Positions 1,737 to 64,000 of a stretch of 64,000 nt of DNA are shown piece by piece. A program made the position numbers and the translations under genes. Origin of the DNA: Octopus vulgaris (taxonomy: Eukaryota); assembly GCA_951406725.2 (NCBI GenBank), contig OX597821.1, positions 56,172,001 through 56,236,000 of the forward strand, read 5' to 3'. Under the pieces are notes generated by a model, which searched no databases, had not been told where the DNA came from, and worked only from the letters and a program-made list of their open reading frames with translations. Numbering within the stretch: position 1 is the stretch's first letter; each line of letters starts with the position of its first letter.

Positions 1737-2653
1737 AAAAGGTACATTGCATCTTTGCAAATAAAATTAACATTTAGTCGTGTAAGGCATAAACCAATTG
1801 ATTTGAAATTCGTATACCGCTTCTGGCATTGTGATGTATCTTAAAACAGACACATTCGTGATCTTGTCAAATTAATAGCAGCTGTTATTGAAATAAATAC
1901 ATTATCAAAAGAGCCACAGAAGCGACACAATGTAGGCGTATTTTGCTGCATTTAGCAGCAAAATACATGCATAATGGAAATCCAATGGCATGAGTTTTTT
2001 TGTCTTCTATCATAATTCTATTCTGACGTAGGGTGTCAAATAAACACATTAACTCGAACTCAATACTTCACTATTATGTTATATCATCGCTCCGGTAAGG
2101 GAAACGAAAAAGTTAACCCGGAAGGATTCGAAAATAGAGTGTAAAGGGCTGTAACTAAATACGCTCTAACGATTCCGATAATTATCACCTTGCCCTTAAA
2201 TCAATTCTGCCAATCACCCCGTCACTACTATAAAGGAAAAATACAATTCAGTTAACACAAAGGGGAGGAATAGTCGAGACAGCAGAACGCGAGACAGAAT
2301 GCTGTAGTGTATCTAGTACGGTACCTCACTCTTCCGAGTTCATATCTCATTTGGGTCGTTGATTTTCACAACTCTGTTGCCGATAAAATGAATACCAGTT
2401 TTATACTGAAGTCGATTCAATTGGCTATAACTTGTCCCCTACAAAATCGGTCTCGTACCTAGTCAAAAGAAATTAATATCAGTCATTGTAACACTGCAAA
2501 TCCTATTTATTCAAAATACGCTATTTTATAAAAGGTTTTATTTGCATTATGAATTAAGGTTTGTGCGCATTATTTCCTTATGTATCGACAATAACACTCG
2601 AAGATTGATGCTTGCATATGCACACGAACGCACCCACCCACACGTCCACACAC

Positions 2654-2734
<81 letters not shown>

Positions 2735-4789
2735 GATAGATATACATACGAGAAAACACGGCGCGAATAATACATAGACAGATCTAGTTTCTTTGGAATT
2801 CATTTATCTCGAGATGCAATGGAGTTTTTCACCATTGCTCAGTTATGACTTCAGTTGCAGGCAAAATACATGAGAGGAAGACGTCTTAAATGATTTTGCT
2901 GCCATTATTCTCCGTGAAATTGAAGTGACGTTTTCAGGGCACAATACTGGCCGGACTGTGTGGAGATCCATGATTGTCCAGATATCAGAATCTCCCTTAC
3001 AGCCTTGATGGTGTAGTCCAAAGGAGAACAGAACAGCACCACTTGAGAACGCTTAGTTGCAGAAATTTCAGGAAAAAGTATTAAATTGAACACCAAATCA
3101 CTATAAGGCTTTCCTCTGGATTTAATACGAGATTCATTCACGAGGCTAATTTGTTGTAACTGGGAATCAGTAACACTGGCCAGGGAGTCAAGTAGGTACA
3201 GTCAACACTAGCCAGGTGTGTCATAACTTATCTGAAATAACTTATCTGCCAAATTTTGTCAATTTTCAAAGGAAATTACTACTAGTTACATTTGAAGTCT
3301 TCTTTGAGCAGTCAGACGTCAGTTTACTTGGAAAGAGACAATGTAGTTATTAATAACGAGAGTAGACATTAACTCATGAACGATTTCACAGCTCTAGCAA
3401 AATTCCATCAAAGACTGCTTATGAACATTACAGCCCACCCTCGTACGTACGTACATAGACAGATACACGAGCATATGTATATGTGCATGTGTGTGCGTGT
3501 GTTCGTGCATGCGCGCGTGTACAGATATAAATATATATATGTTTGTGCGTGTGTGTGTGTGTATACTCCAGACCATAGAATACATTTTAAAATGGTAAAA
3601 CTTTCAGTTGGTGCAAAAAAAAAATTAATATTTCTAACCATTGCAACAGAATGCTTTCGAAAGTTCATAATTTTTATTATTGCATAACAATAATTCTATA
3701 TGTTTGTTCTTAGCCACGCCAACATGCACAAGATATGTTTAATGTTTGTGAGGAATACGAATAAGAAAGGAAGTCGAGGATAGATGTAATTGACTCTAAT
3801 TCCGAGCATCAATGAGAAGTTCTTCAACTGAAAGTTTAATAAGTTACTTTTATTTTTGTCAGATGCAAATTAATACTAGTGGAAATGATATAATCTGAAA
3901 TGTCATTATGTGCATTCTTCATTTTCGAATTTGATATCTAAATAATGGTATTTTCTACGTAGCGGAGGCGGGTGTTAGAGAGAAAATGGCAAACTTCTTG
4001 AGATTCGTGATTCCATCTGCCTTTGATTCTCAGTAAAAGATTAAAATGTGGCTCATACAATCTTTCCTCATTGTATTTAAACCATCAAAGCTCCTGGAAA
4101 GATATGAACGTCTAGATATTGTATTCCTCTTCTCCTAAAATAAAACATCTACATGTTTGTGTGTGTGAGCGCACGTGTGTGTACGTGCGTGTGGTATTAC
4201 TGTGTTCGTGTCTGCGTTTACTTTCAAACTGGTCTAAATAACGTTGTTGTTTACATTCTGTAGTATAGCACTTGGACAAATAAAGATAGAAATAAATACA
4301 GGGATGGGTACAATTTAATAAAATCTCTGTTGTTGGTATCTCAGATTGTTGCTGTTTGATGTCGAAACCAATAAACGAATAAAACATAGGAAAGAACTAT
4401 TTCTAAGCACTTTGTTTAGGATTAGAAACGTTTCGGCGCCGGATTAATAAGCGGAAGTATTTCATTTTTGTTCTTAAACAGCGTGAATTCAAATTTCGTG
4501 TGTCTTGAATATGTAGATTCAGTCGAGCGTGAGTGCGCGTGCAGATGTTTGTGTGAACATAAGCAGTAAACATACAAACGTCCAGTTCAAGTATTTCTCC
4601 GTAGATTGAATAAGTTGAAGAGCCTTAATCGATTTTCGACACATTTTGGGGTCTCAAGAGAGACCAATCCCACAAGTAGCCAATCCATTTGTATACATAT
4701 TATATATAACTGTTGCAGAGAACTGGAGCTGCTAATTTGTATACTATAATACTTTGACTCTAATATGAAGGTTAAGTGCGTGCGTGTGT

Positions 4790-6196: not shown

Positions 6197-7998
6197 TACA
6201 AGTCATCCCATAAGTAACGTCCGGACTTCTATATTTTCAATTTGTAAACGCTTTAACAGTATTTTAGATTGTCTAATGGCATCAAGTAATATTTATCTGT
6301 ATTTGAAGATATTTAAACTAATTAAATTTCATTTTGCAGGATAACTTAATTGAAATTTCACTGATTATAGCTCTTATAGTTGGTCAAAAATGTTATCAAC
6401 AGCAGATATGACGTCATCACCATTTAGGTAGTGGTTCCGAGCCATTTTTTTTTTTAATGTTGGAGAATCAATGATAGCGAGATGGATTCAAGCAATGTCA
6501 GATTTTCCCGTAAAGTGAGCTAGGTGAGCTTTGATCAGATGTCAGAAGACATATAGTGTCTAAAGAGCATTTGAGGCACATAATGCTTTATGAGTTTAAA
6601 AAAAGGAACCCTGCAGCCGAGGCGACTCGAAATATTCACTCAGCTTATGAAGAAGAATGCCTGAATGAAAGACCTTGTAGAAGACGGTTTGTAAAATTCA
6701 GAAGTGGAGATTTGAGCCTTGAATATGGCCAAGCTCCTTTCGACAGAACTTGAAAATGATCATGCAGCTTTAGTCGAAGAATTGGCAAACTAGCTTCATT
6801 CAAGCCATACAACTGTTCACGTCCGTCTTCAGCAGCTTGGGAAGGTCCCAAAACTCGGAAAATTGGGTGTCTCATGATTTGTCTGAAGCCAACCGCAAAT
6901 CCCGAGTGAACATTTGCTTTTCTCTTCGTTCTCGTGAACTCGTCTCGGCCTTTTTGGACAGACTGATGACCGGGGATGGAAACTGGGTTTATCTATAAGA
7001 ATGTTAAGCGTCGTAGACATTGGCTTGATGAAGGGGAAAACACCCAACCACAGCCGGAAGGGGAACTCCATGCAAAGACGGTTCTTCTCTCTGTTTGGTT
7101 GAATTGCAAAGAAGTCATCTACGATAAGTTGCTACCAACTAATGCAACAACCAATGCTCAAATCAACAGTTAAGAATTAGAGTGTTTAGAGGTTGTGCTA
7201 AATTAAAAAGAAAGATATGCTTTAGTGAATCGAAAGGGACTGTGCTGTTTCATCAGGAAAATGCAAAATCCCACACTGCAAAGATAAGGTCACAGAAGGT
7301 CGAAGAACTTGGCCCGGAAGAAATTGCTCATTTGCCTTATTCTCCAGACCTTACTCCTTCAGGTTACCATTTGTTCTGTAGTTTACAGAATCATTTGGAT
7401 GGATTAACTCTCGAAACAACCGACGAAATAAAAACTGACCTTTCAGAGTTCTCTTCGAAACCGAAAGATTTTTTCACTAATGGGATTCACAAACTTACGA
7501 GTAAATGGAAAGATGTCATAGATAATCATAGAAACTATACTCTCCCTTTACTCTTTTACTTGTTTCAGTCACTTGACTGCGGCCATGCTGGAGCACCGCC
7601 TTTTAATCGAGCCACTCGACCCCGGGACTTATTCTTTTGTAAGCCCAGTACTTATTCTATCGGTCTCTTTTGCCGAACCGCTAAGTAACGGGGACATAAA
7701 CACACCAGCATCGGTTGTCAAGCAATGCTAGGGGACAAACACAGACACACAAACACACACACGCATATATATATATATATATATACATATATACCACGGG
7801 CTTCTTTCAGTTTCCGTCTACCAAATCCACTCACAAGGCTTTGGTCGGCCAGAGGCTATAGTAGAAGACACTTGCCCAAGGTGCCATGCAGTGGGACTGA
7901 ACCCGGAACCATGTGGTTGGTAGACAAGCTACTTACCACACAGCCACATTAATTTTAATCACTTGTTTTCCTTATTCAAAATCAAGACATTACTTATA
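6197..7998 (+). mobile_element. Decayed mariner transposon interrupted by a SINE
   Basis: Frameshifted transposase 6556-7540 (HLRHIMLYEF, TGD, FHQENAKSH, YSPDLTPSGYHLF); left TIR agtcatcccataagtaacgtcc, partial right TIR gacattacttat. Confidence 0.92.
7541..7947 (-). mobile_element. tRNA-derived CORE-type SINE (family A)
   Basis: A/B-box-like head, ggcaccttgggcaagtgtctt core-like motif, internal microsatellite; near-identical copies at 39427 and 40294. Confidence 0.9.
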
Positions 7999-12875: not shown

Positions 12876-14154
12876 TATCTTAATCCACTAAGTTCCCGCG
12901 GTTTTTTTAAATTTTGGAATTTATTGCGCTTTTAAATTTGGAATCTATTTTTTCGAGATTTCTATTTTGGAATCATTTCTGTATCTACTTTTTTCTAGTC
13001 AATTTTAGTTAATTTTGTTTATTTTTAGATAGTAAAATTGGAATGTGAAGTTAAGAAAAACGAGCATTTTTGACACCTCCTTCTTGTTGCTTTTAATCAA
13101 GGTTCTAAGGCCGCAAAATCTGCTTGCACCATTTGTGCTGTGTATGGAGAGGGTGCCATAGCTGAAAGAACCGCTCGTGATTAATATGCCAAGTTCAGAA
13201 ATGGAGATTTTGACCTCAAAAACTCACCTCGTTCTGACCGTCCAGTTGAGTTCGATGAAGAGCGATTGAACTAACTTTTGCACGAAGATTCTCGTCAACG
13301 ATAAAGGAACTGGCAGAGAAAATAGAATGCTTCCACACTGCTATAGAGAATCATCTTCATTCGATGGGAAAGGTTCACAAGTATGGGGCATGGGTTCTGC
13401 TTGCTTTAAGGGACAAGAACAAAAATCAACGAGCCACAATCTCCGCTGGTTTGTTTGCTCGTCGACGCTCAAGTCGTGGACACAGGCAATGATTTCTTTA
13501 CCGAATCGTTACTGGTGACGAAAAATGGTGCCTGTACATCAATATGAAGCACCGTAAGGAATGGCTTAGCACCGGTAAACAAGCAACACTGCGCGTGAAA
13601 CAAGATCTTCATCCGCGTAAAACGATGTTGTGCGTATGATGGGACTAGGAAGGGATTATTCCTTATGGATTGCTTGAACGGAATCAAACGGTCAACGCGG
13701 AACTCTATGGCACGATGGAACGACTCAACATGGGTATTCAAGAGAGAAGACCTAATCGGCAGCATGGAGTTGATCTGCTGCATGGCAACGCCCGCCCTCA
13801 TATCGCCAATATGACCAAGGAAGCCATTCAAACGCATGGCTGGGAAATGCTGCCACATCCGCCGTACTCTCCTGGTTCGGCACCAACAGATTTCCACCTC
13901 TTTCGATCTCTTTCAAATGCTATGCGCGGAGTTTCGTTCAATACTGATGCAGAATTGAGAGCTTTGCTGGATCAATTATTCAAGACGAAATCGGGGGATT
14001 TCTACCAACGAGGTACTGAATATCTTGTTGAACGTTGGGAAGAAGTTGTAAACAACGAAAGTAAATACATTATTAATTAGTTGTTATTTTTTATTTACCC
14101 TTTTAAGAAATTTAAATTTTAAAAAAACGGTGGGAATTTAGTGGCCGACCTAAT
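12876..14154 (+). mobile_element. Near full-length decayed mariner transposon
   Basis: TIRs ccactaagttcccgcggttttttt / aaaaaaacggtgggaatttagtgg; transposase 13038-14080 with stops (VTGDEKW, LLHGNARPH, YSPGSAPTDFHLF). Confidence 0.95.
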
Positions 14155-24330: not shown

Positions 24331-25818
24331 GTTAAAATATAGAAAATCAACGAAAATGCATATTGTAGATATAAAAAAGCTATTTATGACAGGTAGTGAC
24401 AAATATATACATTTAGAGTATTACTAGTCAAAAAGTCCTTATTATTGATGATTATAAGAAGTTAATAATGATAATAATAATAAGGTAAGAGACTGAAACG
24501 AACCAATTGGTTTTCGCGTTAGCTATTCATCGTTTGAACAACACCGGTTAGTAAACGGTGTCAGGTCTAATAGTTCCTGAGAAAAGAGATTATTTGTAAG
24601 GGAGGTAAGTAGTTAAGGAATTAGAAATGTGAGTGATGTAGAAAGTGTATAGGGTTTAGTGATTTAAATTGAAGAGTTAATGGTGTTCTGTATTGAGTTG
24701 TGTGTTCACATTTACTTGGGGGAGAAATTTGTTGATGAAAAATGATTCTTTATTCAACCTTCGTTGCATTGTGGTGTTCTGTGAGCATTGGTAAAAGGGA
24801 AATATTTGGAAATTGGGATTAAGATTCCTGGAACATCATTCTATGTGTTCACTCACCTTTAACTGTCTGTATTGTGGGTAGCGGATTTGCTCTTTGTGAA
24901 TGGTGATTCTTTGACGGAGCGAAATTCCTGTTTGTCCAATATAGAGTTTACCGCATCCTATGCATGTCATGACATAGATTACATTTGCTGAGGCGCAGGT
25001 GAAATTTGATTTGATCTTAAATATTTCTCCTTGTTTGAATTGGAATTCTGAATCCTCCAGAAGATGGGGGCATGTTCCACAGTTGGAACGTCCACATTTT
25101 GTCACTTTTGGCTAAGTAGTTAGTGGGTAAAGTCTAGCGCTGGTTAGTAATATTTTCAGTGACTTCGGTTGCTTTTTGCTTTTTATAATTTTATATGAGC
25201 TTAAAATTTCGTTCATTGTTTTGTCTGCTGTGAGGATGGGGAGGTTTTGGGTGATGATGTTGAAGGCTTCGTTGTTTCTGGGGTTATGTGTGGAGATGTA
25301 CGGGAGTATTTTTAAGTCTTGTTTAGTATTACGGCTAGTTTTTCTTAATCTTTGTATATCTATTCACTTAGCTCTTTTGATGCCTTCATTTACTAATGAG
25401 ATTGGGCAGTGTCTTTTAGTTAGTGTAGATCTAAGTTCAAGAAGTCTATCTTCACGAGTGTATAACTCTTCAATTTAAACCACTAAACCCTATACACTTT
25501 CTACATCACTCACATTTCTAATTCCTGAACTACTTACCTCCCTTATAAATTATCTCTTTTCTCAGGAACTATTAGACCTGACACCGTTTACTAACCGATG
25601 TTGTTCAAACGATGAATAGTTAACGCGAAAACCAATTGGTTCGTTTAAGTCTCTTACCTTATTATTATTATTATTATTATTATTAACTTCTTATAGTCAT
25701 CAATAATAAGGACCTTTTTGACTAGTAATACTCTAAATGTATATATTTGTCACTACCTGTCATAAATAGCCTTTTTATATCTACAATATGCATTTTCGTT
25801 GAATTTTTATATTTTAAC
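24331..25818 (-). mobile_element. Penelope-like element (Neptune-type) GIY-YIG fragment between inverted pLTRs
   Basis: CGRSNCGTC linker, NVIY..C..CGKLYIGQT..LRQR motif (24700-25460, with stops); ~350-bp arms 24331-24679 and 25463-25818. Confidence 0.92.
25606..25647 (+). ncRNA. Degenerate hammerhead in pLTR (mirror copy 24495-24536 on minus strand)
   Basis: aaac-GATGA-..gc-GAAA-accaattggt-TC-gttt; palindromic stem III; core lacks 1-2 nt. Confidence 0.5.
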
Positions 25819-26873: not shown

Positions 26874-27350
26874 GGTGACGAAAGCTGATGCTACGGCAAC
26901 GACTCGGAAACGAAGCAGCAATCAAATAAATGGAAGCTTTCGATGTCATCACGTCCCCAAAAAGTGCATCAAGTTAATTTTAATATCGAGACGATATTAA
27001 TGTGTTTCATCGACGAGAATGGAATTGTCCACGCACATTATGGTCCTCCCGGACAAACTGTTAACCAGACATTTTAATATGCTTGTCAGTTCTTGCCCCC
27101 TACGACTTTCTTTTGTTCGCCCGAACGTGAAAATTCCTTAAATGAAAACATTTTGCAGACGTGGAAGATATGAAGAAAATAACGAGGCGTTAAAAGGCAT
27201 ATTTTTGGAAGCATTCCGGGATTGCTTCGGACAATGGAAAACGCCTCTCGACCAATGTATGGCGTCAAACGGAGAATACTATGGAGGCAGTAAAATTGTA
27301 AATATGTAAAGCTAAGTGAATAAAATAATTCTGCGAAATTCCGGTTTCTT
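26874..27350 (+). mobile_element. Internally deleted mariner transposase fragment
   Basis: GDES*CYGNDSETKQQS, GIVHAHYGPPGQTVN, LAPYDF, QCMASNGEYY. Confidence 0.85.
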
Positions 27351-28215: not shown

Positions 28216-28351
28216 CTTTGTTCCTGTTATGGTATCACTAATGATATTCACCCAGAAGTAATGTCTGCTGCTCTCAGGAACTCTGTATGTCACAATCAGA
28301 ATTTGAATTCCAAACAATGGTAGTAACAGAATTAAAGCTTTCACAGAGCGT
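28216..28351 (-). CDS. Class B1 GPCR exon, TM6-ECL3-TM7 start (RSVKALILLLPLFGIQILIVTYRVPESSRHYFWVNIISDTITGTK)
   Basis: ttttgcag|...aag|gtaatt, 136 nt, phase 2 to 0; PLFG (PxxG) TM6 motif; open frame. Confidence 0.93.
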
Positions 28352-36200: not shown

Positions 36201-37180
36201 AGAACGCTACTAATATTGATTTCAAATTTTGGCAGAAGACCAGCAATTTCGCGGAAGGAAATAAGTTGATTACATCGATCCCAATGATTAACTAGGACTT
36301 ATTTTTCTCCGACCCCGAAAAGATGAGAGAAAGTTGAAGTTGACCTCAGCAGCGTTTGAACTCAGAACGTAAAGACGGACGAAATGTTGGGAAGCATTTT
36401 GCCTAGCGTGGTAACGATTCCGCTGGCTTGCCGCCTCAAACACAACTACTCTTAAATAAGAGCGCTATCGTATAAACACAGATTAGATTTATATTCAGAA
36501 GTCAGAAGTTATTATATTTGATTTATATTTAGTTTTAGTTAATATAGTACGTACATTTGTTTATTTATCTTATTGATTATCCTTTCAGTTTGATTTAATT
36601 TTGCATGATCATTTTTCTTTTTTGGTTTTGGTTTTTGTTTTCACTTTGTTTAATATGAAAATCTTGCAATGTAAACAGTATATTTTATACGTTGGGAAAA
36701 TATCTAAGATTCAGTTTTTGATAAGAATAAATAATAGGCAAATTTTCATTTTCTTTTATAATAATTTTTCAATATTTTGTGAAATGGTATAAAAAGAATC
36801 AAATATATATCAATATATCTGGTAAAGGTAGTTAAGGTATACTGCATAAGATTTACTAAAGAATTCTTGGCGTTCGAAACTTTTGAAACCATGTGACTTA
36901 AAGGTTACTTTTTCTTATTTTTGTTCAGCTAAGTCTGTGAGACTCAATTATTCTCGCTTAAAGATATATTGAAAATAAAATCAAATCATTCACATAACTT
37001 TAAAATCAATTCGTTTAATCCAGAAGCAAATTTTGGTGAATGGTTCATGTGTAATTCATTCTAAGCAGGTATTTATTTCATCGGTGCCAGATATTTAGAA
37101 ATAAAGTCGATATCACTGGAAATTGAATTTTAGATAGTAAGGAAACGCGACTAGGAAATGCAATCTGCATGATGTAATAT

Positions 37181-43269: not shown

Positions 43270-43840
43270 AATTAGACGTAAGGCCAGCAATTTCGAAGGG
43301 AAATAAGTCGACACGAGTGATACCAGTACTTAATTATTTAATTTTATCAATCCCGAAAGGATGAAAGACGTAGTTGACTTCATCAGGATTTCAACCCAGA
43401 ACGTGAAGAGCCGGTAAAAATGCCGCTAGTCTTTCTGTCTAACACGCTACCAATTTTGGCAGCTCGTCACATTAAATATTAATAATGATTTCAAAATTTG
43501 ACTCAATCCAGTGATTTCGAGAAAGGAGTACGTATTTTATCGACCACAAAAGGATGAGAAGTAAATTCGGCTTCAGCGGCATTTGAGTTCAGTACGTAAA
43601 GACAAACGAAATGCCGCTTAGCATTCTGCCCAGCGAGCTAATGAGTCTTCCAGTAAGCCGCCTTAAGAAGAGTTTCAAATTTTGGCACAAAAAAATCGAT
43701 TAAATTGACGCAAGTGTTTAACTGATACCTATGTTATCGACCCTGAAGGGATGAAAGCAAAGTCGACCTCTGCGAAATTTGAATTCAGAATGTTAAGCCG
43801 GAATAAACGCTGTTAAGCATTTTGTCCGCCGTGACAACAT
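43270..43840 (-). mobile_element. Three tandem decayed family C SINE copies
   Basis: ggatgaaa..ga(c)..gattt/gaatt..cagaacgt motif recurs at ~43360, ~43552 and ~43750. Confidence 0.72.
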
Positions 43841-48649: not shown

Positions 48650-50190
48650 ATTCCTTTAACATGCACACAAATAAGAATTCCAACCTGCAAACACCGTTCA
48701 TGTTGTTGAGCGTTTCCATAAAAACATTTTAATATTATCTAGAATTTTTTTATATTATTTGTTAGAATCCTATAAGACAGCACTTTAGTATATGTTTACA
48801 CGCAATAATAGCTTCAGAATGTTTTGCTCTTACACAAAATTATCTCTTGAGTTCCTTCCAGGTACAAGGTTTTGTGTTTCTTAATATCGACCACTTTGTT
48901 ACGTAACTTATCCCTTGCTTTTGAGTTTCCACACAAGGTCCTCGAGCGAGACGCATTGATTCTTGCACTTATTAGAAAATTGTGCAACGTGGTTTCTAGA
49001 GCGGATTTTAAAGTTATCACTCGTTGAACCTATGTATTTATATGTATGCCTATTTCTCTCCACTTTACATTAATGTACAATGTTTTTCTCATACAATATT
49101 TCCCAAGTGGATATTTATTTTTGTTTCTGAAACGGCACTTTTTAGTTCCTTTTCTTTTCTTTTTCTTTTTGTTATCTGGCCTCCTCCAATTTCATTCCTA
49201 CTACTATTTTGTTTCACATTGTGCATATTGATGTAGTTTCTATGTTTTTTGTCGATTGTTCCTAAGTATTTTTTTCTTAATTCTATCTCCTGTTGTTTCT
49301 GTCCTGTTTTCTAAGTTACAGCTATGCTGTTTCTATTTGCATTAGAATTTTCAGAATAGTTATTAACATGCCTCTCGTTGTTATCTTCTATACCCGCCAC
49401 TAGGTCTGCACCATTCTGAGACCTGCTTTCATAGTCTAGCCTTAACTTACTTTACATATTATTATTAACTCCATGTATGTAGCATTCTAGGTTGTGGAAT
49501 GTAGCAAAAGATGTTACCCTCTGGCGATTAAATATTTTATAATATAGACTATACCTGGGAAAATATTTATCTAATGCAGACAAAAATTCACAAACAATCT
49601 TCAATACGACTTGTAATCCAAATACCGGATTAAACCAACTATATCCGATGTTTTATTGGGTTTTGTGTAACTATTCAGGTTTCTGCTCTATCATTTCCTT
49701 TTCGGATGAAATTTGATGATTTTATTCTTAAGCGCTATTTCCCTCTCTCTTACCTAATTCCTAAATAATGTTTATCTTCATACTGATTGGCGTTGCTTTC
49801 CCCTCGAATTTTTTTTTTACCTTACGTCTTATATTATTATCCAGTTTCTCGGTGTGCTTATTCATGTAATTTTCTCTTTTAGAACTACATCCAATTTTAT
49901 ATTCATTGATTAGTTCATTATTAGGAGAATATTTAATTTTGACTTTATACCCGGTCGTAGCTAGTGCTAGGTTATAGGTTATGTACCCTGTGTGTGCATT
50001 GAATATTGATTCATTCGCAGATAGTTTTGAAATTCTATCTGTCATGCTTTTTTAATAACCTTTTTAGTATGAACTGTGGATGATTCGAGTTTTGGGAACA
50101 TATTTTAATTTTTCATTAGATATGAAGAAAGGTCCCAACATTTCTGTGTTAAGGTGAAGTGTTACATCTAAGAAACCCACTACCGCATGG
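48650..50190 (-). mobile_element. Decayed Penelope RT thumb/linker fragment
   Basis: FLDVTLHL, RISKLSANESIFN..YNLAL..GY, WFNP..FL..LDKYFP..KIFNR motifs; extent below ~49450 is uncertain. Confidence 0.82.
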
Positions 50191-50364: not shown

Positions 50365-52198
50365 ATATATATGTATGTATAAGATGGATAGATACATGTA
50401 TATATTGTGTGTGTGAGTGCGTTTAGTCTTTACCGCTATAATCATCGATTATAACGGTTTAACAAGACACAACACATCACATTGATATACATTAACACAC
50501 ATACACTTACACAAATACCTGACAATAACGCAATTGAATTTGTATTAGTAGCGTATCATCTCGGTAAAACCATTCTGAGAATGTCGAAACATCAGTGATC
50601 AGTGAAGTTTACGAGGGCTTGTAAAGTTTAAAAAGTAATATAAAATCCAGAAAGATGTGTCTTAAGTATGTTAACTGATTATCTTGCAGATCATTTTTAA
50701 AGATGACTAGCTTGAAATGATTTATAAAATATCTCTCATCATAGTCGTTGCTAAGGTTATGTGGTAACTGTTAACTCATTTGCCATCTTTTAAGTAGTGT
50801 CAATGTGAAGTGATATCCATTAGTTTAAAGAGTGCATTTAATTCCTTACATCGGAAGATTTTTAAACTCTTAGAAAGCAAAATTGCTTTCTAAATATATA
50901 TAATTATGTTTATAATAAATGAAGCAGCCATATATATTTTTTCATATAAAATAATGAACCATCATTATAATAACTTGCAGAAAGTCCTCCCACCAGGCGG
51001 TTTTCTGCAAGCCTCTTGAAAAATATTTTCAAGTTTGATTCCCAATTCTAATAAGTTTTATAGTTCACGTCTAATTATTTCTTTGCATAATAGTGTTCAT
51101 TCCGTTAATAAAAATTGCTTTCATTATTCTATCACACTCATAATCTCTCTTAAACAAACATCACGGTAGTCCAACAACAGAGGGAGAAGCAATTTGTCAA
51201 GTTTTACTTTCCCTCAAAGAGATATAGAGATTACATTCTAGCAGCCCTTCTGTAAGTTTTGCAGTGTGTGTGGAGAGAAGGAGAAAGGAGAGAGAACAAT
51301 GCAAGCAATGAATGCAATAAACATGAAATTTTAAAAATCATATAATTTCTTGTCTCATAACATCAAGAAAAAAGGATGCTTTTTAACAAAATTTCCTACA
51401 AATACAGCTTAGATTTTGTGGCTTCAAGTGTATATAGGGATTTATGGGAGAGAATTTTTCCGATAGGGTGGTGAGGGAAGTTTTGGAACATTCACATGAT
51501 CTGACATTTTCCCCTCATAACTTTCAGGAAAATTGGTATCTTTTAATGGAAATGTATGCAAATCCCTTTTAAACGTCATAGATTATGATTAAAAAGAAAT
51601 TCGTGAGAAAATTCTTTTCGGGGATCTTCCCCATTTTTTAAAACCACACCCTTCGTAATGATTGGGTTGGTAGGGAAGCATCTTTGAATGAAAAACATTT
51701 TGAAAATTCTTCTTTTTCAGTTTAAAACCATGGGTAGAGCATTTTGGTAATTTTTGTTTTAAATTGTTAATATTTTCAGAGGGAAAATTGAGTGATTTAA
51801 GGGCGATTTGACTGTTGTTTCTAACTCATACGAAGGCAACCCTCCTCGTTTCGTAATCACACTCGCACGTATTGATATTTCTCAATATTTTTTTCTCCAT
51901 AGATATATTTATATGCTATAAAGAAAGAAAATTTGAGAAATTATGACTATTTTGCAACCCCACTTCCTGCCCACGATTGTTTCTGTTTAGAAATTAAAAT
52001 ATTGGAGAGCCTGAGAAGGTCATTGCTGGCATTTATCCACAGTGAATAAAAAAATTACTGTGATGTGCTTGCATAGCAGGTGACATGATCTGAGATCGTG
52101 TGCTGGAACAAAAACAATTGCAGCGTGAAAGCTGTTTGTAAGCAATTCAAGAACACACAAAAACGGTTAGTTTTACTTCAACATTTAAATTTCATTAG

Positions 52199-52245
52199 TA
52201 TCAAAATATTTTCGTCGCTTTGAAACCGTGACCTGTTCACTGACA
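52199..52245 (-). ncRNA. Hammerhead fold with G3-C8 swapped core
   Basis: tgtca-GTGAACA-g-gtcac..gcgac-GAAA-atat-TT-tgata; mirror copy 52278-52324 gives tcgc/gcga and tgaca. Confidence 0.65.
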
Positions 52246-52325
52246 AAATTTTACAAAAATGATGCAGCATGAAGTTTTGTCAGTAAACATCTCGCGTTTT
52301 CAAAGCGACGAAAATATATTGACAC

Positions 52326-52458
52326 CCGCCGAGGTCGACTTTGCCTTTCATCCTTTCGGGGTCGATAATTTAAATATCAGTTGCGTATTGGGATCGATCT
52401 AATCGACTGGCCCCCTCCCCCCAAAATTTCAGGCCTTGTGCCTAGAGTAGAAAAAAAT
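52326..52458 (+). mobile_element. 5'-truncated family C SINE
   Basis: TSD atatattgacac at 52314-52325 and 52459-52470. Confidence 0.9.
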
Positions 52459-55400
52459 ATATATTGACACAAATGAAATTTACATGTTGAAGTTTTTTTC
52501 TGTGTTCTTTAATGGCTTGGAAGCATCTTCCACGCTGCAATTCTTGTTGATTTAAACAAAGAGTTATGTAAACGATAGTTCATTTTAATAGAATACTTTT
52601 TGGTTAGAAAATCTTTTTTTTCTTACACACACACACACACACACACACACCGCTTCGCTTTATTCAGGTTGGGGTACAAATTTAGATTACAATTTATTTT
52701 GTTGTTTTTTTTTTCACAGATGGACTACGCGTGTGTTGCTTCGGCATCATCACTCCATAAAATATGTTTAATGGGAGAAAAATATTGAAGAAACATCAAT
52801 GCATGTAAAAGTAAAAAGGGAGGGTGGTTTGTATTGTGCTAGAAACAACAGCGAAACTTCCCTTGAATTGTTCACATTTCCTTCTGAAAATATTTACAAT
52901 TTTGTTTTTACTCAAAAATCTCTTTCCATGGCTTTTAAGTTAAAAAGGAAAATGGTCACAATCGGTCCGATCAGTTATTACTGTATGGCTTATAGCGTTC
53001 CAAACAGCCATAACAATAAAATCACTTTAAAAATGTTTTTACAAAAATTATACGGATATTTCAAAAAATTTCATTCAATAAATAATATTTTTAATTACGT
53101 ATACATTAATGTCGGTTTTCGAAATAGCGAATTTAAACTTCAAACGAAAACATTAATAAACAGAAAGTGAAAGACTTTGCAAATGAAAATGGAATACTTC
53201 GCAGTGAATGCAATGAATATTTAAATTTGTGAAGAATGGGAGTTAAGAAATTCAATAAACTTCAGAAATCGAAATTATAGGAAGTTTCTTAGAACATGAA
53301 TTTATAAGATATTTCCAGACGGTCAACCCTTTAATAATTGCTTTCTGCTAGTACTTTTAGTAATTGTTACATACCTAATTAATAAGCAGCTTTCTCTATT
53401 GTAGTACAGATAACGCGACATTTCTGGATAAAAATTTACCTAGCATATAAACTGAGGTAAATTGTCGATAGCCCTTTCAGTTATTTGTATATTTGGAGTT
53501 TGGAACATTTTTGTTAATTAAATTCCATTCAACTAAAAAACAAGCTATGACTTAGTCTCATGATACAAATGGTGGATGATTTGCACGGCTTAGGGGCAAA
53601 ATGTTTGAATGGATAAGGTACAGGGTTTTATGAGTTGTAGATTCATGATTCCTACAATAGGCGTTTTATTTTGTATATTCAGATAGACAGTTAGCTTTTC
53701 TGACTGACAGATTAATCTGCGTCTTCTACACTGACAATGCGCATCTATTGTTTGAAAAAATCTGCAAGAAACGAGAGTGAGGTGCGTATTTATGGAATTC
53801 GGATTATTTTAAGGTACCGTTGCACTAAATTACCTGCCCTTACTAATAAAGAAATATCACTTTCCTTTCATTGCGGCCAATTTAGCAGAATGCAAATGAT
53901 ACCAAAATCCAAAGTGGTGGACTGCGTCGGAAAAATTTTTTTATGAAATTCGGAAATTTCGTTAAGTTCGAAACGGAAGATGAGACGCCAAGTCTAAAAT
54001 TGTGTGCGAAGAATTTTGTTAGGGTGATAAACATTTTTCTCCCTCAAAACAATACACCATTATTCCGTCTTCTCACAGTAATATCCAATTTTACAATTTT
54101 CACGAGAATAGATAACTGTGTTAACTGCAGAAATGGAATAACAAAGTAAATACTAGTATAATTCAAAAACAGAAACGTCAATAAACAAAATACTTTCTGC
54201 CACTACTTGGAAAAACAAATATAAAAAATGGCTGATTAACAAAACTTTATAAAACAACCGATATTGTATATTTTTATTTTCTGAATGAGCTAAAGGACAC
54301 TTCTGAAGAGGTTATCACTGCTTTACTTAGTATTTATTACAGTAAAATTTCTACTAGTCTGTTAGCATATAGGTTGTAACTCGATACGTCCAAACACCAG
54401 TATGAAGTAGCAAACCTGAGACTAAGTAGGTTTTTTAGTATTGAAAATATGATATATAAAACTGAGTACCAGCTATTATTGATCTTTTGTAGTAACTATA
54501 AAAGTTTACTTTGTCGATGAAGCAAACTAACTTTGATAAAATCTTTTGTTCAGCATCAAAGAGGCATTTTAATAAGAAATATTATAATAGTAAAACATTA
54601 GCAGATTGCAGTTATGTCAGTCATTTTGTCTTTTCTGGATAATTCTGTCAGTCTAAGAGCAAATAACTTTCACGATATTCGTATACAATTACCACTACGC
54701 TATTTTTGTGCATGATTAAAATAACGTCTTGTATCAACTATATCAGTTATATTTTGATTGCTTCAAATCCCGTGAATGACACACGTAAAATGTATTACAA
54801 TCATTTTACATCTATATATATACATAGCACTTGGGAATTTCCCTAGAATATCTCGTATATTTTTCTGTGATGTAGGTGAACTGAGAGCAGAGATAAGTGG
54901 ACTGACCAGAAATGCAGAAAAAACAATCACTGTAGATCCAAACTTACTACAAGAGATATTACTATTCCAAATATTACCCATTAGAACCATTTTTTTTTCT
55001 ACCCTTCCATGTTGCTATACACAAATACACCACAACTGAGTCATAGTTGATAACATCAGACTCTCTAGATAAAGCCACTTGGTTAATAATAGGTACAATG
55101 GGCTCGATCCTGCTTAATTTCAGATTTACTGCAGGAAGCAGTGAATGCATTGTATAATTTACGAGTGTTTTATAAGCTCAGAGTGTTGAAATCAAATTCT
55201 TCTATGGATGAGCAAAAGATTAAAGGATCATAATTATATTCAATTTTCCTGAAAATTCTGTTAGCGTTATCTCTCGAACTCACATCTGTAAAGCATGCAT
55301 TAATTTTGCAGCAATCATTACATTACTAAACCTACAATAGACCTTGATTTGTTGGTTAAGATTTTCAAGGGTAATTTTTCTCTGGACGCTATATATTGTT

Positions 55401-56791: not shown

Positions 56792-57012
56792 TCATGATTG
56801 TTTGCCATGTGATGCCCTTATATGACTTTTAAGCCCAGCCAAGCTTTTACACATTTTATTACACACTAGAAAACTGTGCTGGCTGGCAGGAGAAACAGGT
56901 GTCACCATATGCACTCTTTTAACATGTCTTTTTAGACCTCCAACTGAGAGGCACACCCTTCCACATTTTACACATGTTCTGTTATGAATTTTAATAGCCA
57001 CATCAACACGTA
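56792..57012 (-). mobile_element. C2H2-finger fragment, probably the C-terminus of an RTE-type LINE ORF
   Basis: CVKCGRVCLSVGGLKRHVKRVH and [22 protein letters not shown]; no zinc-finger-gene linker or splice acceptor seen. Confidence 0.6.
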
Positions 57013-57442
57013 GGATGCCAGAAATGGATAGGTACAGTAAAAGAAAAGCGGTTGTAAATTTTAAACCCCATATGTGTTCTTTATATATATATATATGTAT
57101 GTATAAAGACACATACACACACACACACATATACACATATATATCTATAATAATGATAATGGCCCGAAACCACGATGATATTTTCGCTCATAGATTGACG
57201 AGAAAAACTCAGCTGCGAACATTCCGTGTATCGCGTCTTTGTGTATATTCCTCGTCCGTTAAGTTTTTGTCTAGTTTCCCGTTTGCGCTCCTTTCGTCTA
57301 ACTTATCCTCCTTGTTGTGTTGTGTCTGTTCAACCCATGACATATCTTTATGTATATATATATATTTCCCTTGTAGTTTGATCGTTGATGATCTATTTCT
57401 AGCATTCTGGCCGGCTACCTAGCAGGCCAGCCCTGCCAATAT

Positions 57443-60382: not shown

Positions 60383-60485
60383 AATTGAACAAATGATATG
60401 AGGTACATTAAAAATCCATTCTAGTTGTCCAGCACGGGGTATCCAGCAGTTAACCCTGGGGTCATCATCTATTTCGGTATGGAGG
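60383..60485 (-). CDS. Class B1 GPCR exon, ECL2 to TM5 start (LHTEIDDDPRVNCWIPRAGQLEWIFNVPHIICSI)
   Basis: tttcag|...|gtaagt, 103 nt, phase 2 in and phase 0 out; CW...WI...P motif of secretin-family ECL2/TM5; joins in frame to the next exon. Confidence 0.9.
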
Positions 60486-62065: not shown

Positions 62066-64000
62066 CATGCTTTAGCAGCATTTCACCCGTCTCTACGTTC
62101 TGAGTTCAAATTCCGCCGTGGATCACTTTTGTGGGTCAATAAAATAAGTGTCAGTTGAAGACCGAGAGTCAGTGTATTCGATTAGCCCTTCCCTCAAAAT
62201 TTCAAGCCTTATGTTTATAATAAAAAGGATTATTATTATCATTATGTTCCGTAATATCAACATTAGAACATTGGTTCGATTCCTATTTAACTTGTTTATT
62301 TCCTTTATATTACTAAATATTATTGACAAAAGTATGAAAGCGACACGACGTTATTCCACGTCTCAGTATCTCTAATACTTTAAGTTTATTCTTTCAAATT
62401 CCTGAGGTATTTACTCTCCACCTGAGTCAATTTCTAATCAATACAGAGATCCAGTTAATTATATGAATTGGGAAAATATTTTAACCCCTATAAATATACG
62501 CAAATACTCCCCTGTTTGTTGATGTGAAGTGGATGAGAAATAAATATACCTGCTGTACAGGACAACAGTCTATTACAGATAACTTTTTTCAGATAATCCG
62601 CTACTTCTCCTGATTTATGTAATATTATATGAGACTAGTAACCGTATTGAGCTCGCTGCCTATGAGTAAGTAAACCAATATTTGACCCATTCTAACATTT
62701 CCCCTGTACAACTATCTAAAGTATTGCGCTTATTTAACAGCTATTTTCAGAACTTTAATTTCTTATCTTGATTCTATTTTATATTTTTACCGAAATTAAC
62801 CTGTTTATAGAGAAAAATTAATCAATAAAATACTTGCTTTCACAATCAGTTATAAACAGATGATGTTGCCTTGAGACCTGAGGCATTATTTTCTGACTCC
62901 CTCTAATACATCTCTGTATTTTAAAAGATCTAAACGTGTTTTGCACGATTTTATGAACAAAAAAAGCTTATGACCGTGAAGTATTGTGGATGTACTGGAG
63001 ATTTCTTTTAAAGTTATTTAGGTTGTTATATCTTCTTTTGCCAAGCTATATGAGTAGATGGATTTAAATCTATAAGATGAAACTAACGAAACGCTGGGAC
63101 ACTGGTCAATTTACAAGTACATCCGCTGCTAATATGTCAGATTCATGATAATTAGTGTAAACAATATGAACTAGTAAATGCTTTGACCAGGGGCAATCCA
63201 AACATCTTGCAGAGGATCTGATCTCACAAACTATGAGTTAATAGAATAATATAATGTCCAATTACCCTTTTAGTGTTTGCTGTGATTGTTCTAAATTAAA
63301 TTGGAAAATGATGACAGTTAGTTTCCAACCTTATTTTCTTCGTTTATTCCAAATAATAGTTGTGTATCGCTTTAATCAAGAGATGTATTATCTCAGTTTC
63401 ATATAAAATTGATTTCTCTCACAAAATGTATTAATCTGATATCACAAACAATATTTCTTTTCTTGTGCCATAAATCGATCGATTCTGTTCAACCTACGCA
63501 AATTACATTTTCATTTACAGATATATGTATTGAATCATTGAGAGTTACGATGTTCATGGTTTGTAGATAAGGTTCAACATACGGGAATGAAATGAAATAG
63601 TTTCGCACATTGAAATTAATAATTGAACATTTCAATTTTGATATATTTCCTTATTTAATTTCATTTAATATATTGGCTTCAAATTTTGGCTCAAGGCCAG
63701 CTATTTGATTGCCTCGACCTTGGTACTCAACTGATACTTATTCTATCGACACCCAAAAGGATGAAAGGCAAAGTCAACTTCGGCGGAATTTGAACTCACA
63801 ACCTAAAGATTAAGCATTTCGCTCGGTGTGCTAAAGATTCTGCTAGCTCACCCCCTTAACTTCAATTAATGTATAGAAAACATTCTAAAATAAGTCTTAT
63901 ATTAATGGAGAAATAATGTATTCTGAAGGTGAAAAATTGTTCCTGATAACTCTTTATTCATTTGGTTATTTATTTATTTGTCTATAATTGGTAAACTGTC

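What the first reader, a model, noticed from the sequence alone, without database searches (positions are those of the whole stretch)
52199..52324. Natural G3-C8 compensatory hammerhead core (GUGAACA instead of CUGANGA)
Seen: stem I tgtca/tgaYa, stem II gtcRc/gcgac, GAAA and palindromic stem III all sit in correct register. The core reads G3-U-G-A-A-C8-A, and the mirror arm keeps G3 and C8. Established: positions 3 and 8 form a Watson-Crick tertiary pair in the active fold, and the double swap partly rescues activity. Inference: the change of exactly these two bases argues for selected ribozyme function, and CUGANGA searches would miss it. The better copy is sense to the GPCR pre-mRNA.
Basis: partly seen in the sequence, partly recalled or inferred. 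Interest (0 to 1): 0.85.

Follow-up and report, generated by a model that had tools for sequence, protein, structure and literature searches.

The report
Swapped-core hammerhead in octopus Penelope retrotransposon
This stretch is a damaged leftover of a jumping gene that occurs thousands of times in this genome and carries a small hammerhead-shaped RNA with two paired core letters exchanged; the intact versions likely cut themselves slowly, but this copy is predicted not to fold and likely does nothing for the receptor gene it sits in.

Summary
The motif is real, and it is not specific to this locus. It lies in the pseudo-LTR of a Penelope-like retrotransposon (PLE), and a full parent with two direct pLTRs flanking an RT–GIY-YIG frame was found. 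G3-C8 is the family state: 204 of 221 sampled arms, none C3-G8, with 6,144 exact motif matches genome-wide. Related PLE families carry C3-G8 on the same scaffold (5,079 matches), with double changes in stems I and II. One relative differs only at positions 3 and 8 across 17 aligned letters. The window copy is an inverted pLTR pair carried inside a Helitron, in an intron of a likely class B GPCR. One arm has a stem II mismatch, the other has G5A, and together they fold into a long hairpin. Cleavage is untested. A sister family has A9C and about 2% of arms are G3·G8, so constraint looks loose. U3-A8 is the known natural swap; I found no natural G3-C8 in print. The scan noted G3-C8 before, in protist PLEs and a phage.

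The parts
52199..52245 (-). Minimal type I hammerhead-like motif, better arm: stem I, core GUGAACA (G3 52240, C8 52235), unpaired G 52233, stem II with one A.C mismatch, GAAA, palindromic stem III, predicted cut between 52204 and 52203
   Evidence: family majority
52278..52324 (+). Mirror arm of the motif, degenerate (G5A; 10.1 is C)
52057..52251 (-). Long arm: 3' part of a PLE pseudo-LTR with the motif and the ~55-nt tail, which is the start of the parent's reading frame (start codon changed in this copy)
   Evidence: alignment to parent L296; parent frame begins inside the pLTR
52261..52542 (+). Short inverted arm: the same pLTR segment without the tail, interrupted by a later insertion
   Evidence: 91 of 149 tail-picked loci have such an arm
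52326..52455 (.). Unrelated short retroposon-like insertion with a 15-bp target duplication (52311-52325 and 52456-52470); family not identified
   Evidence: similar copies near window 36213-36337, 43720-43774, 63724-63786
50974..53410 (-). Non-autonomous Helitron-like element that carries the palindrome: A|TC start, 3' hairpin and CTAG|T end (CAAG in this copy), no target duplication seen
   Evidence: shared ends in 10 (left) and 9 (right) of the 28 loci compared
60383..60485 (-). Likely class B GPCR exon (ECL2/TM5-like) upstream of the element; marks the host intron
   Evidence: splice signals and recalled motif; no Pfam or PDB support
28216..28351 (-). Likely class B GPCR exon (TM6-like) downstream of the element
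   Evidence: splice signals and recalled motif; no Pfam or PDB support

Best explanation
The motif is the pseudo-LTR hammerhead of a Penelope-like retrotransposon family with a family-wide G3-C8 core; in intact elements it likely cleaves slowly, as a dimer or with the element's protein, while the window copy is a decayed passenger predicted not to fold. Steps: (1, shown) the parent has two direct pLTRs, each with the motif about 60 nt before the start codon of an RT-GIY-YIG frame. (2, inferred from PMC11167929) the element's protein nicks both target strands and primes reverse transcription at two sites about 55 nt apart in the start of the frame; this leaves single arms, or inverted pairs with one arm longer by the tail. 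(3, shown) most copies keep the whole motif, so uncut RNA was the usual template. (4, inferred) the 3-8 pair flipped once in this lineage from C3-G8 and was kept because the Watson-Crick pair preserves the active fold at a low rate, as in the laboratory double mutant. (5, shown) one inverted pair was captured by a Helitron and carried into this intron, where it decayed.
For: Parent L296: pLTRs 2304-3421 and 6581-7682, 98.4% identical, identical motif in both; same motif in L297, L298, L299. The frame starts inside the pLTR, has RT and GIY-YIG words and aligns with a Pfam-confirmed RT-GIY protein at E 7e-9. Target duplications of 11-17 bp in 44 of 55 inverted copies outside microsatellites, against 6 of 600 mismatched flank pairs. 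G3-C8 in 204 of 221 arms; 6,144 exact matches. The sister family (55% amino-acid identity over 815 aa; sister on the quick tree, SH-aLRT 100) has C3-G8 at the same place. L315 differs only at 3 and 8 from stem I through stem II 5'. Over 11 rows, 5 of 11 pairs change on both sides, including 3-8 (CG 7, GC 3, other 1); 90.9% of cells pair against at most 53% for slid controls. The parent motif folds into stems I and II, z -3.0, with pair probabilities mostly at least 0.9 in 205 nt of context. Variants shared by both arms and recurring in two or more loci: core 0 of 11 positions, palindrome 0 of 4, loop II 5 in 9 positions, outside 19 in 91. The anatomy matches PLE minimal hammerheads (PMC4209133).
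Against: No cleavage assay. No pile-up of RNA read ends at the predicted site in two RNA runs (fragmented libraries, another organism label). Only 7 of 222 copy 5' ends fall at the cut site; this is the top 3-nt window (Poisson p 0.003), but the window just downstream has 6 and a reverse-transcriptase stop at stem I explains both. The constraint test gives p 5.6e-6 per copy but p 0.72 per distinct variant. G3·G8 arms are in excess: 42 of the first 100 listed of 303 non-C8 arms (my count), against 42 of 397 background changes. A young sister family has A9C in roughly three quarters of the first 100 matches listed. The unpaired base is G, whereas the published consensus has H there (PMC4209133 supplement), and G at that place harms a viroid hammerhead (PMC3705267). 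The 11 rows stand for only four or five lineages. Hammerhead mutants still insert in vitro (PMC11167929).
Confidence: 0.62

Rival explanations
1. The motif descends from a PLE hammerhead but no longer needs to cut. The stems are kept as a structural or protein-binding signal, or because of the overlapping promoter, and the core drifted from C3-G8 to G3-C8 through an unpaired G3·G8 state.
For: G3·G8 excess, including one locus with G8 in both arms; A9C in the sister family; 165 of 222 copy ends lie upstream of G3; no read-end pile-up; PLE insertion in vitro does not need cleavage (PMC11167929); Naiads lack canonical hammerheads and still spread (PMC8557442).
Against: Drift would not favour exactly the two paired positions; U4, G5, A6, G12-A15.1 and U16.1 are invariant over the 11 aligned rows; another PLE group in the same genome has the other Watson-Crick swap, U3-A8.
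Confidence: 0.3
2. This particular intronic copy has been co-opted and cleaves the GPCR pre-mRNA.
For: The better arm is sense to the likely GPCR.
Against: Stem II mismatch; the motif alone does not fold as a hammerhead (z 0.17), and the two arms pair into a -64.1 kcal/mol hairpin; hammerhead pair probabilities are 0.03 or less; it sits in a Helitron found at many loci; any inverted pair has one arm sense to its host gene.
Confidence: 0.03
3. The resemblance to a hammerhead is chance, produced by short inverted repeats in a DNA transposon.
For: No Rfam hammerhead hit; the motif lies in a palindromic repeat inside a Helitron.
Against: Rfam also misses canonical relative L315; 0 hits in 150 shuffles; the position in a pLTR is where PLE hammerheads lie; fully canonical CUGAAGA relatives share the scaffold.
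Confidence: 0.02

Closest known systems
Minimal type I hammerheads in pLTRs of metazoan Penelope-like elements (Cervera and de la Pena 2014, PMC4209133; read parts 1-2 of 4, supplement searched)
   Same: Position in the pLTR, short helix I, G10.1-C11.1, one unpaired base at the foot of helix II, palindromic helix III suited to dimers, many solo and opposite-strand copies; natural 3-8 covariation already known as U3-A8.
   Different: The 3-8 pair is G-C; the unpaired base is G where their consensus has H; H17 is U.
Poseidon element of Anolis carolinensis, PAc (Frangieh et al. 2024, PMC11167929; read parts 1-2 of 4)
   Same: Hammerhead near the ORF start; tail equals the stretch between two internal priming sites; AT-rich targets; uncut RNA as main template; no read ends at the cut site; engineered C3G/G8C partly restores cleavage.
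   Different: There G3-C8 is a laboratory mutant, here it is the natural state; the tail is about 55 nt rather than 30-40; the ORF starts well after the motif; a Cys-rich linker precedes GIY-YIG, as in Neptune and Nematis (PMC8557442); clade not determined.
Natural hammerhead core variants (Perreault et al. 2011, PMC3088659; passages and supplement string search)
   Same: Covariation at the 3-8 pair occurs in nature.
   Different: The passages seen report U3-A8 only; four G3-C8 strings were not found in 11 supplement files (gapped alignments could hide them).
Non-LTR retrozymes (PMC7229834, passages; bioRxiv 10.64898/2026.07.22.740005, part 1 of 5)
   Same: Short hammerhead-bearing repeats related to PLE pLTRs.
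   Different: Those are tandem monomer arrays giving circular RNA; these copies are dispersed 5'-truncated or inverted pLTR fragments with target duplications.

Membership tests
Penelope-like element (EN+) | One frame with RT followed by C-terminal GIY-YIG | tested here: met
   RT and GIY-YIG words in L297; alignment to Pfam-confirmed L061, E 7e-9. Pfam itself gave no hit for L296 or L302.
Penelope-like element (EN+) | Pseudo-LTRs in direct or inverted arrangement | tested here: met
   Direct in L296, inverted in L297; 91 of 149 short copies inverted
Penelope-like element (EN+) | Tail extension at one end, made of the ORF start | tested here: met
   Inverted arms end at reference 149-158 in 73 of 91, long arms at 211; the frame starts in this segment
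Penelope-like element (EN+) | Variable target duplications, AT-rich or microsatellite targets | tested here: met
   44 of 55 against 6 of 600 controls
Penelope-like element (EN+) | Clade assignment (Penelope/Poseidon, Neptune, Nematis) | not tested
   No reference clade sequences in the tree
Minimal type I hammerhead | Three-way layout: stem I, stem II with G10.1-C11.1, A15.1-U16.1, H17 | tested here: met
   Parent and family majority; the window copy itself is damaged
Minimal type I hammerhead | Literal CUGANGA core | tested here: not met
   GUGAACA in 204 of 221 arms for the 3-8 pair, none C3-G8
Minimal type I hammerhead | Watson-Crick pair between positions 3 and 8 | tested here: met
   G-C here, C-G in relatives, U-A in another PLE group
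Minimal type I hammerhead | Palindromic stem III for dimer formation | tested here: inconclusive
   AAUAUU is a perfect palindrome, but its duplex is only -0.2 kcal/mol and the predicted two-molecule fold used other pairs
Minimal type I hammerhead | Site-specific self-cleavage | not testable with these tools
   Indirect signs only: 7 of 222 copy ends at the site; no read-end pile-up
Rfam hammerhead families | Covariance-model hit | tested here: not met
   No hit for the window, the parent or canonical relative L315
Non-autonomous Helitron (host element) | TC start, 3' hairpin, CTRR end, insertion between A and T | tested here: met
   autonomous partner not sought

The most novel reading that the evidence does not exclude
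A successful animal retrotransposon lineage naturally fixed the C3G/G8C 'rescue' mutant and spread it to over 6,000 places. Its relatives in the same genome use C3-G8, C3-G8 with A9C, and U3-A8, and a G3·G8 minority may record the unpaired step between states. If the G3-C8 form cleaves, this is a natural series showing that PLE hammerheads are tuned to be slow or protein-gated, and it implies a class of genomic ribozymes that CUGANGA descriptors have been missing.
Probability: 0.35. Interest if true: 0.72.

Novelty: new variant of a known kind. Interest (0 to 1): 0.52.

Why it matters
What hammerheads do for Penelope-like elements is an open question (PMC8557442 says their function is unclear; PMC11167929 found cleavage dispensable for insertion in vitro). 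This genome offers related families that differ at the 3-8 pair and at A9, with near-intact parents, so rate against core state can be measured on natural sequences. It also gives a high-copy natural case of a swap known to me only from laboratory mutants, and a reason to widen genome search descriptors to any Watson-Crick 3-8 pair. It says nothing new about the GPCR.

Tried and rejected
MITE or foldback DNA transposon for the central palindrome: rejected, because target duplications vary from 11 to 17 bp, arms are unequal, centres vary, and a PLE parent exists. Helentron/HINE reading of the 205-nt unit: rejected on the same grounds. tRNA-derived SINE: no match by eye, not tested with a tool. 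Pfam GIY-YIG search of the genome returned other PLE groups, not the parent; it gave the U3-A8 comparison. A protein search with the tail frame found no long frame among 150 scored of 12,953 candidates; the parent came from walking upstream. Rfam: no hammerhead hit. Sequencing runs: no RNA holder listed on record; 14 holders are only guessed to be RNA. GPCR confirmation by Pfam over 241 filtered frames, three exon pieces and PDB failed. The careful tree did not finish; only the quick tree is cited. Alignment A1 had one row in the wrong orientation and was replaced by A2. Rows dropped before counts: 11 duplicate or clonal loci (168 loci kept), 8 (141 kept). Literature: ten searches and supplement string searches found no natural G3-C8 and no report of this octopus motif. 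Lunse et al. 2017, Przybilski and Hammann 2007 and Martick and Scott 2006 were not held, one Cervera supplement file could not be searched, and figures are not visible; Lunse et al. in particular may list such a variant. PMC6155905 passages held nothing relevant. Sequence look-up in earlier scan notes gave only an unrelated hit.

Full report
1. What is in the sequence. On the minus strand the window has, in order: a 5-bp stem I strand, G3-U-G-A-A-C8-A9 (52240-52234), one more G, stem II, GAAA, the palindrome AAUAUU, U17 and the second stem I strand. Stem II of this copy has an A.C mismatch. The mirror arm keeps G3 and C8 but has G5A and no G10.1. The two arms form a 54-bp inverted repeat at the centre of larger ones. 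Rfam finds no hammerhead here.

2. Three nested elements. The window is G000:C8:56172001-56236000 in a 2.8-Gb genome. It is likely an octopus: a protein named Octopus vulgaris by its source is 99% identical to a related frame in this genome. The central stretch had 2,629 first-look candidates, 40 scored. Comparing 28 loci showed a 2.4-kb outer element, 50974-53410, with Helitron-type ends on the minus strand. Inside it is a ~490-bp lopsided palindrome that also stands alone elsewhere. A 130-bp insertion with a 15-bp target duplication interrupts the short arm.

3. The palindrome is a retrotransposon fragment. The end of the long arm had 12,953 candidates. I examined 149 of the 150 listed matches, picked by that end only. 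The unit is about 205 nt. 91 of 149 have an inverted second arm, usually about 55 nt shorter. Target duplications of 11-17 bp occur in 44 of 55 inverted copies outside microsatellites, against 6 of 600 mismatched flank pairs. RNA reads showed a shared upstream continuation, present in 242 exact copies. Walking upstream reached a GIY-YIG C-terminus, and downstream an RT. L296 is a near-complete element: pLTRs 98.4% identical, the same motif in both, and a frame that starts inside the pLTR. L297-L299 agree. The frame has RT and GIY-YIG words and aligns with a Pfam-confirmed RT-GIY protein, though Pfam did not hit it directly. This matches the published PLE picture of inverted 5'-truncated copies and a tail (PMC8557442, passages). 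It also matches priming at two internal sites on both target strands (PMC11167929).

4. The swap is the family state and is compensatory against relatives. Of 221 arms covering both positions, 204 are G3-C8, 6 G-U, 6 G-G, 4 A-C, 1 gapped, none C3-G8. Genome-wide, 6,144 arms match G3-C8 on this stem II scaffold and 5,079 match C3-G8; reversed controls gave 0. The C3-G8 set holds a young sister PLE (55% identity over 815 aa) with the motif at the same place. It also holds an older group with a fully canonical CUGAAGA core, and L315, which lies behind a GIY-YIG remnant and differs from this family only at 3 and 8 across 17 letters. Over 11 rows, 5 of 11 pairs change on both sides (three in stem I, one in stem II, and 3-8), and the slid controls fall to 53% paired or less. 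These rows stand for only four or five lineages. Another, distant PLE group in this genome uses U3-A8. C3-G8 is the general consensus and is seen in at least three relatives, so I infer that G3-C8 is derived. The parent motif folds into stems I and II (z -3.0; stable in context). Such a motif did not arise in 150 shuffled windows.

5. Is it under selection to cut? The evidence is mixed. Changes seen in both arms of one insertion mostly come from the source RNA. Recurrent non-CpG ones avoid the core (0 of 11 positions) and the palindrome (0 of 4), and gather in loop II (5) and outside (19). The test is significant per copy (p 5.6e-6) but not per distinct variant (p 0.72). Against strict constraint: the sister family has A9C in roughly three quarters of the first 100 matches listed. 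G3·G8 makes up 42 of the first 100 listed of 303 non-C8 arms (my count; U8 43, A8 15), where background would give about 11% (42 of 397). I cannot tell whether this is an intermediate or a later change. The unpaired G falls outside the published consensus H, and G there harms a viroid hammerhead (PMC3705267, passage). Yet the canonical relatives have it too. Of 222 copy 5' ends, 165 lie upstream of G3 and 7 at the cut site. That is the highest 3-nt window, but a stall at stem I could give the same picture. Two RNA runs cover the element on both strands with no pile-up of ends. This fits PAc, where the ribozyme needs protein, uncut RNA is the main template, and C3G/G8C partly restores cleavage (PMC11167929). 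It also fits the low dimer rates of PLE hammerheads (PMC4209133; PMC6765202, passages).

6. This copy and the GPCR. Exon-like stretches with splice signals and class B receptor-like words lie on the minus strand on both sides, so the better arm is sense to that gene. Pfam and PDB did not confirm the receptor; the label rests on recalled motifs. The copy alone does not fold as a hammerhead (z 0.17), and with its mirror arm it forms a -64.1 kcal/mol hairpin. Every inverted pair has one arm sense to its host gene. I therefore see no case for local function.

7. What is known. U3-A8 is the published natural swap (PMC3088659, passages; PMC4209133). G3-C8 appears as a laboratory variant (PMC11167929; PMC8495972, passage; PMC3884650, passage). 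Ten searches and supplement string searches found no natural case. Three key papers were not held, so the claim of no prior report is provisional. Earlier notes of this scan describe G3-C8 candidates in protist PLEs and a phage; I did not test them.

8. Verdict. The parent is a member of the EN+ Penelope-like elements. The motif works like a PLE minimal type I hammerhead and meets its structural tests, but not the literal core; cleavage is untested. New variant of a known kind; interest 0.52. My confidence that the family motif is a PLE hammerhead homologue is about 0.95. For slow cleavage kept by selection, with a dead window copy, it is 0.62.

Noticed in passing
L075:1381-1595 (family element), RNA runs X21 and X22: RNA reads show 28 A>G and 28-30 T>C variable places, against 2-3 and 6-7 in contig sets of other organism labels. 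This suggests A-to-I editing of the hairpins these inverted copies form; no matched DNA.
   Followed up: no
Shared 5' boundary of the unit (window 52261; L296:7482): Most short copies begin at one point, preceded in the parent by a branch-point-like word, a pyrimidine run and YAG. Of 45 arms with AG before it, 25 have G next and 11 the genomic C. This fits either a capped start at the A or a spliced first exon; unresolved.
   Followed up: partly
L302:5725 and relatives: A young sister PLE with intact 1,310-1,312-residue frames carries A9C in its hammerhead core in thousands of copies.
   Followed up: partly
L061, L040, L047, L068: Another PLE group, common among GIY-YIG hits (6,136 candidates), has a U3-A8 core; L061 has a second 359-residue frame upstream of the RT-GIY frame.
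   Followed up: partly
window 51697-51915 and 52756-52962: A second, older inverted repeat (69% identity) inside the Helitron around the pLTR palindrome; origin not determined.
   Followed up: no
window 24839-25111 (-) and 48911-49069 (-): GIY-YIG fragments of other PLE copies (Pfam E 1.1e-5 and 1.5e-3).
   Followed up: no
window 6535-7170, 13493-14077, 26889-27074 (+): Mariner-type transposase remnants (HTH_48, Transposase_1).
   Followed up: no
L200-L205, L213, L214: Eight near-identical loci with the same junction and flanks: one palindrome copy amplified inside another repeat.
   Followed up: no
L038:44 and L039:454: Canonical CUGAUGA hammerhead-like motifs of further families; L039 has two in inverted arrangement and a long loop II.
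   Followed up: no
window 56795-57187 (-): Short frame with C2H2 zinc-finger hits below the curated cut-offs.
   Followed up: no
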